Positions 1 to 35,472 of a DNA stretch of 64,000 bases are shown here, piece by piece; the stretch's first letter is position 1; each line of letters begins with the position of its first letter. The stretch is from the human T2T-CHM13v2.0 reference genome, Homo sapiens. Made by a program: the position numbers and the translations under genes. The stretch is from NCBI RefSeq assembly GCF_009914755.1, contig NC_060947.1; one strand, written 5' to 3'. The notes under the pieces were generated by a model. It had not been told where the DNA came from. It searched no databases and saw only the letters and a list, made by a program, of their open reading frames with translations.

Positions 1-704
1 TCCATGGCATTTCTGTCCATGCCCTACCTCTTCCCATCTTAACACTATTGCCCTGCTGTTCCCTCACTATCAAAGCCGCCTCCTGAAGTCTTCTCCCATC
101 TCCCCAAGCAGTAGTCTCCCGCTCCTGAATGGCTCACTCTTGCTAGAGCTGTCTTATGGCCCATGCCACATGCTTCCTTTTGTTATAATCTTTTGTGTCC
201 CTTATTTCCTCTAGATTGCAAACTCTTTGCCTGTGGGAAGTATGTCTTACACATTTGTATATCCTCACAACACACAGCCTCATGTAGCAGACATCTAATA
301 CTTGTTTAAAAATGAAGTTTAGGGACAGCTTAGGAGATCTCGCTGTCTGCTAGGTGAGTCCCAAGTCCGTGTGGTTGTACCTACCCAAGATGAAGGTAAG
401 AACACCCAAGCCTGCCTCCTGCTCAACCTGCTGCCCTAAGAAAACCTCTGCATGTCCCCTGTCTAAAACTGTCTATGCACTTCGCTCTGAGAATGCACTG
501 TCTTCCATCTCCTACCCTAGCAATCAGGTTCTATGCATCTCAGTGCAAACAGCCGTTAACGTTTCAGGATAGACAAATATGCTAAAAGGACAAAAGGAAA
601 AATTCTTGACACCATTTTGATTTACACCTCCTCTTCATTCCAGCCTCCTGGCGCTTTGTATGGTGGCTGGAAGTGCTTGACAAATCATAGCACCATCAAA
701 TTTA

Positions 705-1404
<700 letters not shown>

Positions 1405-1465
1405 CTATGTTAAGGGAAGTGATGACAAGAAAGCCTTCCCTGCGATTAAGAAATTATAATAATAT

Positions 1466-1629
1466 ATGCTTAACTGGCAGGGGAGATACCATGATCACAA
1501 AGGTGGTTTTCCCAGGGCGAGGCTTATCCATTGCCCTCTGGATGTGCTGACCCCTGCGATTTCCCCAAATGTGGGAAACTCGACTGCACAATTTGTGGTA
1601 GTGGGGGACTGTGTTCGCGCTTTCCCTTG
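1466..1629 (+). pseudogene. U1 snRNA processed pseudogene, full length (164 nt)
   Basis: Colinear with U1 (ATGCTTAACTGGCAGGGGAGATACCATGATCAC...TTCGCGCTTTCCCTTG), followed by poly(A); 18-bp TSD AAGAAATTATAATAATAT at 1448-1465 and 1954-1971. Confidence 0.96.
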
Positions 1630-1656
1630 AGAAAAAAAAAAAAGAAAGAAATTATA

Positions 1657-1959
<303 letters not shown>

Positions 1960-2394
1960 TTATAATAATATAATAATAACTACCACTTATTGGTCACTTA
2001 ATGTATACAAGGCAGTTTATTATCCCATTTAACTGTCTTTATTGACCCTATGAAATAAGTACTCTTAGTACTCCTATTTTATAGATGAGGAAACAAGGCA
2101 CAAGGTGTAAGTCACTTACCCAACCATCACATAGCTAGTAAGTAAGTGGCGAAGCTGGGACTTGAACCTATGTCTCTCCTTCCTCAGGCCCTTTTTTTAT
2201 TCACCAAGAGTACAGGAGCCTAATCCTGTAGGCAAGGGAACTGGATCATTTTGACTTTAGTTCCCTTGCCCCAGGTGTGGGACTAGAGGATGAGGGAGCG
2301 GGAAAGCAAACCTTGATATTGGGAGTCCACAGCCTCAGTGCAAGAGTTGAGAAAATCAATACTTTGCAAGCTCAGAAACTGAGAGGCCATAGCT

Positions 2395-2741
2395 TGTCTT
2401 AATCCGTTCAGGCTGCAATAACAAAATATCATAAACTAGATGGCTTATAAACAACCAAAATGTATTTCTCACCGTTCTGGAGACTGAGAAGTCCAAGGTC
2501 AAGGCAGATTTGATACCTGGCGAAGGCCAGCTTCCTAGAGCCTTCTTGCTTTGCCCTCACATGGTGGAAGGGGGAGCTAGCTTTCTTCCATCTCTTTTAA
2601 AAGGACCCGAATCCCATTCATGAGAGCTTTGCCTTCATGGCCTAATCACCTCCCAAAGGCCCTGCCTCCTAAAACCATCACCCTAGGAGTCAGGATTTCA
2701 ACAGATGAATTTTGGGAGGACACAAACACTCAGAGCATAAC
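2395..2741. mobile_element. MaLR solo LTR (MLT1/MST family)
   Basis: TGTCTTAATCCGTTCAGGCTGCAATAACAAAATATCATAAACT...GAATTTTGGGAGGACACAAACA pattern typical of MaLR LTRs. Confidence 0.7.
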
Positions 2742-4265
2742 GAGCCTGGCTTTGGCCAGGGAATGGTTAACTCAAGTTAGAGAGAGGAAAAAAAAAAATC
2801 TTTGGAAAACTGGGCTGTCCTGGGGTCTGCTTTAGTCCCTGGCAGTCTGGCAATGGAAAGCCCTACTTGTTGCTTTGACTTGAGAAGCCGTAATGAGCAG
2901 TGAGCCACAGGCATAGACCATTCAGTAGACACAGGTCTTTGGCCAGCCTTGAACAACAACTGCTCAGAGGGACTGGGAAGAAAGCCCGCCTACCACAGGG
3001 GGCAGGGCTGGGAGCAGAAGCAAAGCCCCAGGATGGGAGAGTAAATTGTTATAACTATACCTGCGAGGAAGTGCTAACAAAGTTCCAGGTTTTCTGCCTA
3101 CTTCAATATTTCCCGGTTGGCATAGCATCTACTCTTAGTAGGAACAGAGTTCTATTTGCCTAACAGAGTCAAATTACCTGTCCAGAGGTACAAACACTGC
3201 TAGGTTCTAAGCCTTCAGGGTAGTGGGAGAGGAGTGGAGCCTTACCTTTAGTTTGTTGTATTTTCAACTCTCTGCTGTCATCTTACTTTTAGGTCTGGCC
3301 CCTTTGTGAACCAAATTCTTCTAACTGAGTAGCATTGCGTTAGCAGTCAGAAAAAAAAAAAAAAAAAAGATGCTTTTCAAATATAGGTAGATGTCTGGAC
3401 ATCCCTTAGGCAAGGTGGCTCTGTATGAGCGTCACTATTAAAGTGAAAGGAAAGGAAAAGTCTCCCCACCCTTGTTTTTTTTTCAAAAGGTATAGAGTGC
3501 CCGAAATACTTTAGGGATGGCAGCTGTTGAGCATGGAAACAAGACTTGTCCCTAGAGGGAAGGCAAGGAAGGCATGGGGAAGAGCCTTCCTAACTCCACT
3601 TAGTGTAAAATCACTCTGTCCTCTTCCCCTGACCTGAGCTGGCTTATTCCTTGGAAGAGATAAAGATCTGGGAGTCAAAATGACCACCCTGTGCTGAGCA
3701 GGCTTCTTTGAACTCCAGCTAAACGGTAACAGCACCTAAGATAGGATGTTCCCACCCTCACTCCCCACCTCAAAGTGGAGGTGAAGAGGGAGATAAGGGA
3801 AAGGGAGAGAAAGGTCCCAGGAAAGGTCTGCTGTCAAGAGGGAGGACCCGCAGCTGGCTGGGAGCATTCACAGGAAGTACCAATTTTCACCTCCTTTTTT
3901 CCACAGAGCTGTTGCTTATTTGCCTACGACGGCTGTGTTCCTCTTGAGGCTGTAATGGGCAGACTAGCTCAGTGGGTAACAGTGTGAGCTTTGGATCCCA
4001 GCCTTGCCACTTACTCCCGCGTGAACTTGTGTACACCACATAACCCATCTGAGCCTCATCTTCCTCATCTGTTTTGAGGGTAAGAATGGTGCCTACCTCA
4101 TCTACTTGCAGCAAAGACTAAATTCGTTTAGTGCAAATGCAGAGCCAGGCCCATAATAAGTACTCTCAATAATGCTAAGATGCCATGTTTATTGTTCTTG
4201 AAGCATCACTTCAGAATCTGTGCACAGCATGGAAGGCCTGATTAGAACCATAAAAACCAGTCCAA

Positions 4266-4556
4266 GGCCGGGCGCGGCGACTCACGCCTGTAATCCCAGC
4301 ACTTTGGGAGGCCGAGGTGGGTGGATCACTTGAGGCCAGGAGTTCCAGACCAGCCTGGCCAACACGACGAAACCCCGTCTCTAATAAAAATTAAAAAATT
4401 AGCTGGGCATGGTGGCGCGCGCCCGTAGTCCCAGCTACTCAATAGGCTGAGGCATGATAATCACTTGAACCAAGGAGGCAGAGGTTACAGTGAGCCGAGA
4501 TTGCACCACTCCAGCCTGGGCGACAGAGTGAAACTCTATTTAAAAAAAAAAAAAAA
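4266..4556 (+). mobile_element. Alu (AluS-like)
   Basis: Dimeric Alu with poly(A); TSD-like CCAGTCCA on both sides. Confidence 0.95.
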
Positions 4557-5898
4557 GCCAGTCCAGATGTGTTTCCATGTTTCCTATGATTACTATAAAC
4601 ACACAAATGAGCTGGGCTCACAGAACCTCAATAGACCTTGGATATGTATAGCTAATGATGAGCAGCGACAGGAATCGAGAGTTCGTACAGAATTTTTTGG
4701 TTTGGTTAGCGTAACAACAGGCTTTACAGACAGGCTCCATGTGCAAGCACTGCACACCTCTGTATGTTCTCAGCCTTCTGAGAACTGTCACTGCCAAATC
4801 TTTTCCTTCACCCTCCCCACCCTATCTCACCCCCAGGCAAGGTGACACTTTCAAAGTTGGCACGGCAGGCAGCACATGCCAGGCCTGTGACCCAGGCCTC
4901 AGCAGCTCTGCTCACTTGCATGGCAATTGCTTTCTACAGTCAGGCCCAGCTGCACTTTGGGTCTCCCCAACCCCCACCCCCAATCACCACACAGGAACTG
5001 GCTGTTTCTCTTTTCTTCGTCCAAGCTGAATACTAACCTACTGTGGTTTGCTTGCTTCCCCCATTGTGATCGCAGGCTTTCTGAGCAGCTAGTCAACCCT
5101 CTAGCCTGCCACTGAATCGGAAGGCATTCACACTGGAGGGGATCAAGGGGAGCTTGTAGGCTTGCCTTGCTGGCGGGCAGCTGCCTACACCCACTCGTAC
5201 CAATGTCCCCGCTGCAGAGCCCGGGTGCTTCCCAGCTGTACAAGGACAACTATTTGGGTCCCGGCTATGCCAAGAGAAACATGGGTCATGTGGTTCACAG
5301 GACAGAAAGGTTCATTTACTCCAATATGACTGGCATTTTTTTTTGTTTGATTATTGGATATTTGCCAAAAGACTGAAGCCTCCTGCCACAACCACCTCCC
5401 CCACATATATGTCCTCAGATGGTTTGGGAATTGGACAGCTTAGTCATCAGGTCCTGTCCTCCACATCCACAGAAGATACAAGTTGTTTCCAGATAACATG
5501 CAGAAGGTTCTGAGCTCCTTCCTGTGTGCTCCAGCTCGAAGACTCTTTTCTTTTCCCTATGAATTTTTTTTCCTTTTCTTTCTCTGGTCTTTCCTTTTTA
5601 ATGCCCTTTTAAAATTAAGTATTCTATCTTTTGAGTGGGTAACACATACACATGATACAAAATCCAAAAGGTGCAACGAGTATATGCTGAAAAGTAAACC
5701 TCTCTAACCTTTGTCCTTAGCCATTCAGCTCTCCTGTGAGTCAGTACTGTTGTTAGCAGTTTACCTGTATCTTTCCAAAGATGGTCTATGCAAAGATCCA
5801 CATAAACTTGTACATTTATGTTCTGTTTTTAGGTCAGCAGCAGCACACTACATACACTCTTCTGTGCCCTGTTTTTTTTCCACCTGAAAATGTATCTC

Positions 5899-6242
<344 letters not shown>

Positions 6243-12855: not shown

Positions 12856-12924
12856 TTAAAAAATATTTTTTAAAAAAAAGAAAAAAAACGGTGGGCAGAG
12901 CAGATCATATAGGACCTTGTAGCC

Positions 12925-13135
12925 TACGAGCATGCTGGAACCACTTCCTACTGGCTCAGGAGAACTGACTGTTAAATTTCAGGAAATTTGGGAGCTGGTC
13001 GACTTCGCATTTGGCAGCCTGAAATCAGCCATAGTGGGAGTACTGATGCTGTTGAAATTGGTAAATGCTACAATTCAGCCCTTTTTTATTTTCCCCCAGA
13101 GAACCAGTTGTTAAACTTTGCCACCATATTAGTAC
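12925..13135. mobile_element. MER63-like hAT DNA transposon remnant
   Basis: TGCTGGAACC...GAGAACTGACTGTTAAATTTCAGGAAATTTGGGAGC...CCAGTTGTTAAA resembles MER63. Confidence 0.5.
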
Positions 13136-13396
13136 TATGGCTTGTAGGCTCCAGTAAGAAATTTAGATTTTATTCTTTTTTTTTTTTTTTTTTTATACTC
13201 TAAGTTTTAGGGTACATGTGCACATTGTGCAGGTTAGTTACATATGTATACATGTGCCATGCTGGTGCGCTGCACCCACCAATGTGTCATCTAGCATTAG
13301 GTATATCTCCCAATGCTATCCCTCCCCCCTCCCCCGACCCCACCACAGTCCCCAGAGTGTGATATTCCCCTTCCTGTGTCCATGTGATCTCATTGT

Positions 13397-18299
<4,903 letters not shown>

Positions 18300-19202
18300 C
18301 TTTGTGGTTTCATCTACTTTTGGTCTTTGATGATGGTGATGTACAGATGGGTTTTCGGTGTAGATGTCCTTTCTGGTTGTTAGTTTTCCTTCTAACAGAC
18401 AGGACCCTCAGCTGCAGGTCTGTTGGAATACCCTGCCGTGTGAGGTGTCAGTGTGCCCCTGCTGGGGGGTGCCTCCCAGTTAGGCTGCTCGGGGGTCAGG
18501 AGTCAGGGACCCACTTGAGGAGGCAGTCTGCCCGTTCTCAGATCTCCAGCTGCGTGCTGGGAGAACCACTGCTCTCTTCAAAGCTGTCAGACAGGGACAC
18601 TTAAGTCTGCAGAGGTTACTGCTGTCTTTTTGTTTGTCTGTGCCCTGCCCCCAGAGGTGGAGCCTACAGAGGCAGGCAGGCCTCCTTGAGCTGTGGTGGG
18701 CTCCACCGAGTTCGAGCTTCCCGGCTGCTTTGTTTACCTAAGCAAGCCTGGGCAATGGTGGGCGCCCCTCCCCCAGCCTCGTTGCCGCCTTGCAGTTTGA
18801 TCTCAGACTGCTGTGCTAGCAATCAGCGAGATTCCGTGGGCGTAGGACCCTCCGAGCCAGGTGTGGGATATAGTCTCGTGGTGCGCCGTTTCTTAAGCCG
18901 GTCTGAAAAGCGCAATATTCGGGTGGGAGTGACCCGATTTTCCAGGTGCGTCCGTCACCCCTTTCTTTGACTCGGAAAGGGAACTCCCTGACCCCTTGCG
19001 CTTCCCAGGTGAGGCAATGACTCGCCCTGCTTCGGCTCGCGCACGGTGCGCACACACACTGGCCTGCGCCCACTGTCTGGCACTCCCTAGTGAGATGAAC
19101 CCGGTACCTCAGATGGAAATGCAGAAATCACCGTCTTCTGCGTCGCTCACGCTGGGAGCTGTAGACCGGAGCTGTTCCTATTCGGCCATCTTGGCTCCTC
19201 CC
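18300..19202 (-). promoter_or_regulatory. L1 5' UTR: internal sense promoter with YY1 site, and antisense promoter firing on the + strand
   Basis: CpG-rich 5' UTR; YY1 motif AAGATGGC intact (19185-19192). Confidence 0.85.
18755..18970 (+). CDS. L1 ORF0 (antisense, 71 aa), intact
   Basis: MVGAPPPASLPPCSLISDCCASNQRDS...RCVRHPFL*; splice donors CAG|GTGTGG (18860/61) and CAG|GTGCGT (18945/46). Confidence 0.85.
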   Translation: MVGAPPPASLPPCSLISDCCASNQRDSVGVGPSEPGVGYSLVVRRFLSRSEKRNIRVGVTRFSRCVRHPFL

Positions 19203-19420
19203 GCTTTGTTTTCTTTTTCATCTCAGTTTTTGAGGATAAGAATGCTTTGTTTTAAAAGGGATCATCTGTGTCTTTTTAAAAGCTTACTGAATTTTCCTGG
19301 TGTGAATTATTTGCACGTACTCATTTTTGTGGTTGATTTGGATTTTACAGTGATTAAGATTTTACAGTACCTGCTCCACCGGGCCCAGATCCTGCTTCCC
19401 AGATCTTCCTGGGAAGCACC
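19203..19420 (-). other. 218-bp 5' transduced segment carried by the L1
   Basis: Non-L1 sequence between the L1 5' end and the TSD AAGAAATTTAGATTTTATTCT (13156-13176 and 19421-19441). Confidence 0.88.
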
Positions 19421-19516
19421 AAGAAATTTAGATTTTATTCTAAGTGTGATGTAAAGTCATTAAAATGTTTTAAGCAGGTGAGTAAAAGGATCTGATTTTT
19501 AAAAATCACTGTACGT

Positions 19517-34392: not shown

Positions 34393-35158
<766 letters not shown>

Positions 35159-35472
35159 TTATTCTAAATGCTGTGGGGAGGCATTGAAGGTTTTTAAGCA
35201 GAAAAGCGATATAATCTGACTTTGATTTTTATAAGATTACTCAGTTGCTGTGTGGAGAATGGATTGGAGGGAAGCAAGGCTGTGAGTGAGAAGACCAGTT
35301 AAGAAGCGATTTCGGAAGTCCAAGCAAGAAAGGATGGCTTGGACTAGAATGGTGGCAATAAAGATGGAGAGGAATGAATGAGTTCAAGATGTATTTTGAA
35401 GGTGGACTCAGCATGATTTGCTGAAGGATTGAATATAGGGAGTTAAAGAAAGGAGTCAAGGGTGGCACCTAG

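What the first reader, a model, noticed from the sequence alone, without database searches (positions are those of the whole stretch)
19203..19441. Full-length L1HS carries a 218-bp 5' transduction: its TSD lies beyond the L1 5' end
Seen: the 21-bp sequence AAGAAATTTAGATTTTATTCT abuts the poly(A) at 13156-13176. It recurs at 19421-19441, not at the L1 5' end (19202), with an endonuclease-type TTCT/AA junction. Removing everything between the copies restores a continuous L2 remnant (CTTGTAGGCTCCAGTAAGAAATTTAGATTTTATTCTAAGTGTGATG...TTTTAAGCAG) that resembles the L2 at about 35130-35200, so the 218 bp are foreign to this site. Established: 5' transductions arise when a source L1 is transcribed from an upstream non-L1 promoter and fully reverse transcribed. 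They are much rarer than 3' transductions. I recall the 2001 human genome paper noting two cases of similar size, so this copy may already be catalogued. Inference: the A-rich AAAAAGAAAACAAAGC directly before the L1 GGG is the source element's own 5' TSD, and the segment start marks a germline-active TSS at the donor locus.
Basis: partly seen in the sequence, partly recalled or inferred. Interest (0 to 1): 0.85.

Follow-up and report, generated by a model that had tools for sequence, protein, structure and literature searches.

The report
L1 with borrowed chr6 leader
A young full-length L1 jumping gene on the X chromosome carries 217 extra bases copied from one spot on chromosome 6, a known but uncommon by-product of L1 copying; the chromosome 6 spot holds no L1 in this genome.

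Summary
An exact 21-nt target-site duplication (13156-13176 and 19421-19441) brackets poly(A), a full-length minus-strand L1 (13195-19202) and 218 non-L1 bases (19203-19420). The genome holds one other copy of those bases, chr6:114,909,048-114,909,264 of T2T-CHM13. It matches 216 of 217 positions, and the one difference is at a CpG. The 218th base is an untemplated sense-strand G, as expected from a reverse-transcribed cap.

The chr6 locus has no young L1 within 10 kb on either side in CHM13. The defining proof of a 5' transduction, a source L1 next to the donor sequence, is therefore missing.

What favours read-through from a source L1 that is absent from CHM13:
- The segment is colinear and unspliced.
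- It ends at the exact L1 5' terminus.
- On chr6 it ends in an A-rich, endonuclease-like site. Such a site occurs at 12-19% of positions locally.

My odds are about 0.65 for 5' transduction and about 0.25 for reverse transcriptase jumping onto a separate chr6 transcript. Splicing and small-RNA chimeras are excluded.

The kind is known. I found this copy in no paper or table that I could search. Interest is modest.

The parts
13156..13176 (.). Target-site duplication, copy next to the L1 poly(A) (21 nt)
   Evidence: Exact match to 19421-19441, only two copies in the window, no extension on either side.
13177..13194 (-). L1 poly(A) tail, an uninterrupted run of 18 (T on the + strand)
   Evidence: The T run starting at 13177 is 18 long; sequence read.
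13195..19202 (-). Full-length L1 (L1HS-like), about 6.0 kb, from its 5' terminus (sense GGGAGGAGCC...) to the base before the poly(A)
   Evidence: With 13196-19202 as query, 18 of the 28 other listed matches cover query 1-6007; the best scores 10748 bits against 10834 for self. The alignment to the chr13 L1 starts exactly at 19202.
13397..17224 (-). ORF2, open, 1275 codons
   Evidence: the ORF listing, table 1, ATG starts.
17232..18299 (-). ORF1, open for 355 codons. A 5-nt gap relative to other copies, near 17327-17332, shifts the frame about 31 codons before the stop and gives a different, longer C-terminus.
   Evidence: Translation. 38 of 39 other matched copies span 246 nt where this one spans 241. 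The gap was located against 4 of 4 other aligned copies, L015-L018.
18300..19202 (-). L1 5' UTR, complete to the element's 5' terminus
   Evidence: Sequence read; alignments.
19203..19419 (-). 217 nt templated from chr6:114,909,048-114,909,264 (T2T-CHM13), in the same sense as the L1: the 5' transduced or appended segment
   Evidence: This is the only other match in the genome. 216 of 217 positions are identical; the single difference is window 19366 A against chr6 G, at a CpG. The flanks beyond the segment do not match.
19420..19420 (-). One untemplated base (sense G) between the chr6-derived segment and the TSD: cap-like
   Evidence: The window has C where chr6 has A, and the base is not part of the TSD.
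19421..19441 (.). Target-site duplication, copy beyond the appended segment (21 nt). It is followed by AAGTG, so the nick site is TTCT/AA.

Best explanation
This is a classical, unspliced L1 5' transduction.

Shown:
- One target-primed reverse-transcription event inserted 6,244 nt (13177-19420) into an old dispersed repeat in an SLC25A43 intron. The insert is antisense to that gene.
- The event used a TTCT/AA nick and made a 21-nt TSD.
- The copied RNA consisted of an untemplated G, 217 nt of chr6 sequence, a complete L1 and poly(A).

Inferred:
- That RNA was made at chr6:114.909 Mb, minus strand, about 133 kb before MARCKS.
- It came from an allele that carried a full-length L1 inserted right after ...AAAAAGAAAACAAAGC.
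- RNA polymerase II started 217 nt upstream of that L1, at a G preceded by T. It read through a weak donor-like CAG|GTAC without splicing, ran through the whole L1 and used the L1 poly(A) signal.
- The L1 proteins then copied this long RNA to its capped end, which accounts for the extra G.
- The source allele is absent from CHM13. It is either polymorphic or lost.
For: - The TSD, poly(A) and nick site bracket the L1 plus 218 nt as one unit.
- The segment has a single donor in the genome. It is colinear with it for 217 nt, in L1 sense, and 216 of 217 positions are identical, the one change being at a CpG.
- The join falls at the exact L1 5' terminus.
- On chr6 the join is not at a splice donor: the next bases are AA.
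- On chr6 the 16 nt before the join hold 12 A, which 1.9% of local positions reach.
- They begin after TG, so TG/AAAA is one mismatch from the endonuclease consensus TT/AAAA at a TSD-like distance of 16 nt. Such a site is found at 12.4% of 6,314 local positions and at 187 of 1,000 positions in the first kb of the presumed transcript.
- There is an untemplated G at the segment's 5' end and a T|G start dinucleotide.
- Read-through from an upstream promoter is the textbook route to L1 5' transductions (PMC6035798, passages). Of 208 L1 progenitors in 1,019 long-read genomes, only 156 gave 3' transductions alone, and source loci without an identified element are reported (PMC12350158 and its preprint, passages).
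Against: - The defining feature is missing. CHM13 has no L1 at the chr6 junction and no young L1 within 10 kb on either side.
- No sibling exists in CHM13. The 218 nt occur nowhere else. The 761 nt downstream of the chr6 junction are single-copy, so no 3'-transduced offspring of a chr6 source is visible.
- I saw no sign of a promoter. CpG observed/expected is 0.12-0.33 over 20 kb, and the 273 nt upstream are single-copy, so not a repeat-borne promoter.
- The endonuclease-site argument is only a 5- to 8-fold enrichment.
- For 15 of 17 reference L1s with unique 5' RNA pieces, the donor gene also lacks an L1, and those authors favour RNA recombination (PMC13174262, passages).
Confidence: 0.65

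Rival explanations
1. Template jump. An ordinary L1 RNA, made from its own promoter at some other locus, was copied to its 5' end. The L1 reverse transcriptase then jumped onto a separate, capped, unspliced chr6 transcript, at its 3' end or at an internal site 217 nt from its start. It copied that RNA to the cap before the cDNA was joined to the target. Chr6 never held an L1.
For: - The chr6 locus is L1-free in CHM13, at the junction and for 10 kb on either side.
- There are no siblings and no 3'-transduced offspring of a chr6 source.
- Full-length L1s with unique RNA pieces at the 5' end whose donor genes lack an L1 are on record (15 of 17), and template switching is one of the listed mechanisms (PMC13174262 and PMC11838501).
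- The cap-like G fits this model as well as it fits read-through.
Against: - It needs a jump exactly at the L1 terminus onto an intron-like position of a rare, non-repeat RNA.
- The landing point happens to look like an L1 endonuclease target with a TSD-length A-rich stretch, which 12-19% of positions do by chance.
- There are no extra bases at the chr6/L1 join beyond the L1's own G run.
- The segment holds no poly(A) hexamer (AATAAA or ATTAAA), so nothing marks an RNA 3' end at the join. TTTT runs at +139 and +163 argue against a polymerase III product of 217 nt.
- The segment matches no known small RNA. The one Rfam hit has E 0.69 and 21.8 bits against a gathering score of 53.
Confidence: 0.25
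2. Read-through from a distant promoter with 5' truncation. A source L1 did sit at the chr6 site, inside a long transcription unit. Reverse transcription simply stopped 217 nt upstream of it. The segment start is then a truncation point and not a transcription start, and the extra G is an ordinary untemplated base.
For: - No promoter signal was seen at the segment start: no CpG island and no repeat-borne promoter.
- 5' truncation and short untemplated bases at 5' junctions are common in L1 insertions (my own knowledge).
Against: - The extra base is G, the base expected from a cap, and the start is a purine after a pyrimidine.
- A long nascent pre-mRNA is a poor template for the L1 proteins, which prefer the RNA that encoded them (established knowledge, not tested here).
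Confidence: 0.07
3. Splicing or RNA ligation joined a chr6 exon to L1 RNA, as in the 8q21.11 source element, in the mRNA/L1 chimeras or in the U6/L1 chimeras.
For: Such events are documented: 22 spliced 5' transductions from 8q21.11 (PMC12350158); six exon pieces ending at splice donors (PMC13174262); and RtcB ligation of U6 to L1 (PMC6789731, abstract in the listing).
Against: - The segment is colinear with the genome through a donor-like CAG|GTAC at about +50 and ends where chr6 continues with AA and not GT.
- The L1 part starts at its first base and not at an internal acceptor.
- A capped L1 5' end is not a ligase substrate (inference).
Confidence: 0.02

Closest known systems
L1 5' transduction by read-through from an upstream cellular promoter
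   Same: - Non-L1 sequence lies between the upstream TSD and the 5' end of a full-length L1.
- It is in the same sense as the L1 and has a unique donor elsewhere.
- All hallmarks of target-primed reverse transcription are present.
- The review PMC6035798 describes the mechanism. PMC4862182 calls such events extremely rare, with few cases, and cites Symer 2002 and Athanikar 2004. Neither of those two papers, nor the 2001 genome paper, was seen.
   Different: No source L1 is visible next to the donor sequence in this genome.
8q21.11 source L1 with 22 germline 5' transductions (PMC12350158)
   Same: An upstream start site drives a full-length L1, and the offspring carry unique 5' sequence.
   Different: - There the source element is known, the 5' piece is an exon spliced to the L1, and many offspring exist.
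- Here the piece is unspliced and colinear, the source is unseen, and CHM13 holds a single offspring.
mRNA/lncRNA-LINE-1 5' chimeras (17 in hg38; Cell Genomics 2026, PMC13174262)
   Same: - A near full-length L1 carries the first part of a transcript in sense orientation.
- A TSD encloses both parts.
- The donor locus usually lacks an L1 (15 of 17).
- One table row shows an extra G at the 5' end.
   Different: - Those 5' pieces are mostly spliced exons of annotated genes joined to older L1PA elements.
- This one is unspliced genomic sequence on a very young element.
- It is not in that paper's four held tables: no hit by estimated coordinates, by gene name, by TSD or by segment string.
U6/L1 and other small-RNA/L1 chimeric retrogenes
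   Same: Two RNAs are copied into one TSD-flanked insertion (PMC4476161 and PMC6789731, abstracts in the listing).
   Different: In those chimeras the 5' partner is a known small RNA, and the L1 part is said to be often 5'-truncated (PMC11838501, section 25). Here there is no Rfam family and the L1 is complete.
L1 3' transduction
   Same: Flanking unique DNA is carried along by L1 and can serve as a barcode for the source locus.
   Different: It affects the opposite end, arises by read-through of the L1 poly(A) signal, and is much commoner. This copy has none, because its poly(A) abuts the TSD.

Membership tests
L1 insertion by target-primed reverse transcription | Target-site duplication flanking the whole insert | tested here: met
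   Exact 21-nt repeat at 13156-13176 and 19421-19441, only two copies in the window.
L1 insertion by target-primed reverse transcription | Poly(A) tail at the 3' end, next to the TSD | tested here: met
   Uninterrupted run of 18 at 13177-13194.
L1 insertion by target-primed reverse transcription | Endonuclease-type nick site (TTTT/AA-like) | tested here: met
   TTCT/AA on the + strand at 19441/19442. The consensus itself is from established knowledge.
L1 5' transduction (read-through from a source L1) | Non-L1 sequence inside the TSD, joined to the L1 5' terminus in sense | tested here: met
   19203-19420 lies between the L1 terminus and the TSD.
L1 5' transduction (read-through from a source L1) | The segment maps to one unique donor locus and is colinear with it | tested here: met
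   One other genome match on chr6, 216 of 217 positions identical, no gaps.
L1 5' transduction (read-through from a source L1) | A full-length source L1 directly downstream of the donor sequence | tested here: inconclusive
   Absent in CHM13 at the junction and within 10 kb on either side. Other human haplotypes could not be searched.
L1 5' transduction (read-through from a source L1) | The donor junction looks like an L1 target with the source's own TSD | tested here: met
   TG/AAAA lies 16 nt before the junction. The background for such a site is 12.4% of 6,314 local positions and 18.7% of 1,000 positions in the presumed transcript. This is weak evidence.
L1 5' transduction (read-through from a source L1) | An active transcription start at the segment's 5' end | not testable with these tools
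   Only indirect signs: an untemplated G and a T|G start. No CpG island. No expression data were available.
Spliced or trans-spliced exon-L1 chimera | The 5' piece ends at a splice donor, or the L1 starts at an internal acceptor | tested here: not met
   Chr6 continues with AA after the junction, and the L1 starts at its first base.
Small-RNA/L1 chimeric retrogene (U6/L1 type) | The 5' partner is a known small RNA | tested here: not met
   Rfam scan of 19150-19480: one match, at E 0.69 and 21.8 bits against a gathering score of 53.
L1HS, Ta subfamily | Diagnostic ACA trinucleotide in the 3' UTR (recalled, not taken from a call) | tested here: inconclusive
   The sense strand of 13278-13292 reads ...GATGACACATTGG.... 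The closest full-length copies score 10748 bits against 10834 for self. No reference subfamily set was available. 'Ta-1d' was not tested.

The most novel reading that the evidence does not exclude
Chr6 never carried an L1. On this reading the X copy records a very recent, human-lineage case of the L1 reverse transcriptase running off the capped 5' end of a complete L1HS RNA. The enzyme continued on an unrelated, unspliced, capped polymerase II transcript from a gene-poor stretch of 6q and copied it to its cap. That would be an in vivo end-to-end template jump onto a non-repeat RNA. It would also mean that some 'orphan-source' 5' transductions in population catalogues are not transductions at all.
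Probability: 0.25. Interest if true: 0.55.

Novelty: new member of a known kind. Interest (0 to 1): 0.3.

Why it matters
L1 5' transductions are a known and fairly uncommon class. This one is a clean, very young example in the reference X chromosome, and its donor is now pinned to a single base on chr6.

If a chr6 L1 allele exists, the 217 nt are a ready barcode for a source element that is missing from CHM13. They also mark an upstream start site able to drive a full-length L1 past its own promoter's silencing.

If no such allele exists in any human haplotype, the copy becomes a test case for separating true transductions from RNA-level chimeras. Recent work has raised that question for older elements (PMC13174262).

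Either way it bears on one locus and not on a general principle.

Tried and rejected
**Sequence work**
- Siblings. The 218 nt occur nowhere else in CHM13. The first 761 nt downstream of the chr6 junction are single-copy. A 1,500-nt query hit only Alu copies at query positions 757-1107 (40 of 7,517 candidates scored).
- Offspring of the X copy. Its 3' flank has no high-identity copy elsewhere.
- Repeat-borne promoter on chr6. The upstream 273 nt are single-copy.
- A closer L1 relative as an alternative source. The best of 25 scored candidates, out of 12,336, reaches 10748 bits against 10834 for self, so a closer copy is not excluded.
- Chr13 L1 that shares the 5-nt ORF1 gap. It is only 98.97% identical, with 58 mismatches and 4 gap openings over 6,039 columns. 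It is therefore not the immediate source.
- The sigma-70 promoter and terminator scan (0 sites) does not apply to human DNA and is ignored.

**Literature**
- The phrase "5' transduction" cannot be searched because of the prime sign.
- 'SLC25A43' together with 'L1HS': 0 papers.
- The TSD and junction strings: 0 papers.
- Supplement of PMC12350158. The text is cut. By my estimate the chr6 insertion rows lie beyond the cut. The only chrX rows returned were in the first 1.3 Mb. No row was found at chr6 114.90-114.91 Mb or chrX 117.8 Mb.
- PCAWG supplement (PMC7058536, text cut) and MELT supplement (PMC5668948, 3 of 14 files not searched): no chr6 row at my estimated hg19 or hg38 coordinates.
- PMC13174262 tables: no hit.

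**Not held or closed**
- Not held: the 2001 genome paper, Athanikar 2004, Lavie 2004, Szak 2002 and the id I recalled for Ebert 2021.
It may list pangenome L1 sites that bear directly on the chr6 question.
- Earlier findings of this scan were not open.
- The hg19 and hg38 coordinates used in the searches are my estimates. They combine recalled gene positions with the MARCKS match in T2T, so a miss by coordinate is weak evidence.

Full report
**1. What is in the sequence**

The L1 lies on the minus strand. On the + strand, the 21-mer AAGAAATTTAGATTTTATTCT ends at 13176. A run of 18 T follows (13177-13194), then the reverse complement of an L1 3' end. The reverse complement of the L1 5' terminus ends at 19202.

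The 21-mer recurs exactly at 19421-19441 and nowhere else in the window, with no extension on either side. Directly outside the L1 5' end there is no candidate duplication. The longest word shared between the 40 nt beside the poly(A) and 19203-19262 is 6 nt. The second copy is followed by AAGTG, so the first-strand nick site reads TTCT/AA.

The insertion unit is therefore poly(A), the L1, and 218 further bases (19203-19420).

**2. The 218 bases do not belong to the X locus**

- A model of the pre-insertion site was computed inside a script only. It aligns through the junction to a paralogous repeat copy at window 35127-35223. It has 67 of 99 columns identical and scores 62, against 21.7 +/- 3.5 for shuffles, and 0 of 300 shuffles reach the observed score.
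- The flank 12860-13176 matches 39 other listed places in the genome at 70-83% identity, so it is an old dispersed repeat.
- Within the window the 218 bases have only chance-level similarities, the best at E 0.13.

**3. Where the 218 bases come from**

A search of the whole assembly gives two matches: the window itself, and chr6:114,909,048-114,909,264 on the + strand, covering query positions 1-217.

- 216 of 217 positions agree.
- The one difference is window 19366 A against chr6 G, inside a chr6 CpG.
- Base 218 (window 19420, sense G) matches neither chr6 nor the X target, so it is untemplated.
- Beyond both ends the two loci are unrelated. Chr6 is continuous unique sequence on both sides. 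Chr6 is therefore the donor.
- A Pfam MARCKS match at chr6:115,041,978 places the donor about 133 kb before that gene.

**4. State of the donor locus**

- In CHM13 the junction reads, in L1 sense...GATGAAAAAGAAAACAAAGC | AACAAAACAAAC..., with no L1.
- Within 10 kb on either side the only L1 similarity is a 351-column match at 67% identity to the L1 3' end, about 4.5 kb downstream.
- There is no CpG island: observed/expected is 0.12-0.33 in 1-kb steps, and 0.16-0.37 around the presumed start.
- The 273 nt upstream are single-copy.

**5. Reading the appended segment as RNA**

- In sense it starts with the untemplated G, followed by GTGCTTCCC.... On chr6 the base before that first templated G is a T.
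- It runs through a donor-like CAG|GTAC near +50 without splicing.
- It contains no AATAAA or ATTAAA hexamer.
- TTTT runs at +139 and +163 would stop polymerase III.
- It ends where chr6 continues with AA and not GT.
- No Rfam family matches it. The one hit has E 0.69 and lies far below its gathering score.

Splicing, trans-splicing, ligation to a small RNA and a polymerase III origin are thus excluded or unsupported. An unspliced, probably capped polymerase II transcript is the simplest source.

**6. Two ways to join that RNA to a complete L1**

(a) *Read-through, a true 5' transduction.* A source L1 sat at the chr6 junction in some haplotype.

(b) *A jump by the reverse transcriptase.* The enzyme moved from the end of an L1 RNA onto a separate chr6 RNA.

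The sequence gives one discriminating clue. The 16 nt before the chr6 junction hold 12 A, which 1.9% of local positions reach. They begin after TG, so an endonuclease-like TG/AAAA sits at a TSD-like distance of 16 nt. Sites of that quality within 7-20 nt occur at 784 of 6,314 local positions (12.4%) and at 187 of 1,000 positions in the first kb of the presumed transcript. This favours (a) about 5- to 8-fold.

Against (a):
- No source L1 is visible in CHM13.
- There are no siblings with the same 5' piece.
- There are no 3'-transduced offspring of a chr6 source.

I put (a) at about 0.65 and (b) at about 0.25. The remainder goes to a chr6 source L1 with read-through from a distant promoter plus truncation, and to the excluded splicing or ligation route.

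**7. The L1 itself**

- ORF2 is open for 1275 codons.
- ORF1 is open for 355 codons. Near 17327-17332 the copy lacks 5 nt that 38 of 39 other matched copies have. The gap was located against 4 of 4 aligned copies. The last roughly 31 codons are therefore read in another frame.
- One L1 on chr13 (75.84 Mb) shares the gap. It is only 98.97% identical over 6,039 columns, with 58 mismatches. The closest scored copies reach 10748 bits against 10834 for self (25 of 12,336 candidates scored). The shared gap lies in a short repeated motif and is probably recurrent. That is an inference.
- The exact TSDs, the pure 18-nt tail and the near-identity of the appended piece to chr6 all point to a recent insertion.
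- The 3' UTR shows the ACA that I recall as the Ta diagnostic. 'Ta-1d' was not tested.

**8. Comparison with what is known**

- Read-through from an upstream promoter is the standard explanation for L1 5' transductions (PMC6035798, passages).
- They were called extremely rare in short-read work (PMC4862182, passages).
- Long reads in 1,019 people show 208 L1 progenitors, of which 156 gave only 3' events. One source at 8q21.11 gave 22 spliced 5' transductions (PMC12350158, passages). Progenitors may go undetected when they do not co-segregate with their offspring (preprint version).
- A recent study lists 17 reference L1s with unique RNA pieces at the 5' end. In 15 of them the donor gene holds no L1, and the authors argue for RNA recombination (PMC11838501, section 25; PMC13174262, passages).

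The present copy differs from those 17. It is unspliced, colinear with intron-like DNA, and very young. It is not in that paper's four held tables, whether searched by coordinate estimate, gene name, TSD or segment string.

**9. Is this copy in print?**

I found no mention:
- 0 papers hold the TSD or junction strings.
- 0 papers hold SLC25A43 together with L1HS.

I also recall 145 and 215 bp from that paper, from memory only.

**10. Verdict**

The event is a member of a known class. The proof of the mechanism, a source L1 at chr6, is absent in this genome. It needs a pangenome look-up, which I could not run.

Noticed in passing
window 17232-18299 (-), gap near 17327-17332; L019 (chr13:75,835,000-75,844,000): ORF1 of the X-linked L1 lacks 5 nt that 38 of 39 other matched copies carry, which shifts the last ~31 codons into another frame. 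One full-length L1 on chr13 shares the gap but is only 98.97% identical overall, so the gap is probably recurrent and not inherited.
   Followed up: partly
window 19017-19454 (+): A 145-codon ATG-started open frame runs antisense out of the L1 5' UTR, through the whole appended segment and into the TSD. It runs in the direction of SLC25A43 transcription. It is most likely a chance frame.
   Followed up: no
window 19366; L002 1664: The only templated difference between the X copy and chr6 is a CpG-to-TpG-type change. It falls at position +5 of the intron side of the donor-like CAG|GTACCG in the appended segment.
   Followed up: no
window 12860-13176 and 35127-35223: The insertion site lies in an old dispersed repeat with 39 other listed matches genome-wide at 70-83% identity, plus a paralogous copy 16 kb away in the window. 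The family name was not determined.
   Followed up: partly
L020 5281-5621 (chr6:114,904,328-114,904,668): An ancient L1 3'-end fragment, 67% identical over 351 columns, lies about 4.5 kb downstream of the chr6 donor junction, in the same sense as the presumed transcript. It is far too diverged to be the source.
   Followed up: no
L002 1920-2300 and L002 400-725: Alu copies flank the chr6 donor within a few hundred bases on both sides. A (CAAA)n-like run lies about 220 nt upstream of the presumed start.
   Followed up: no
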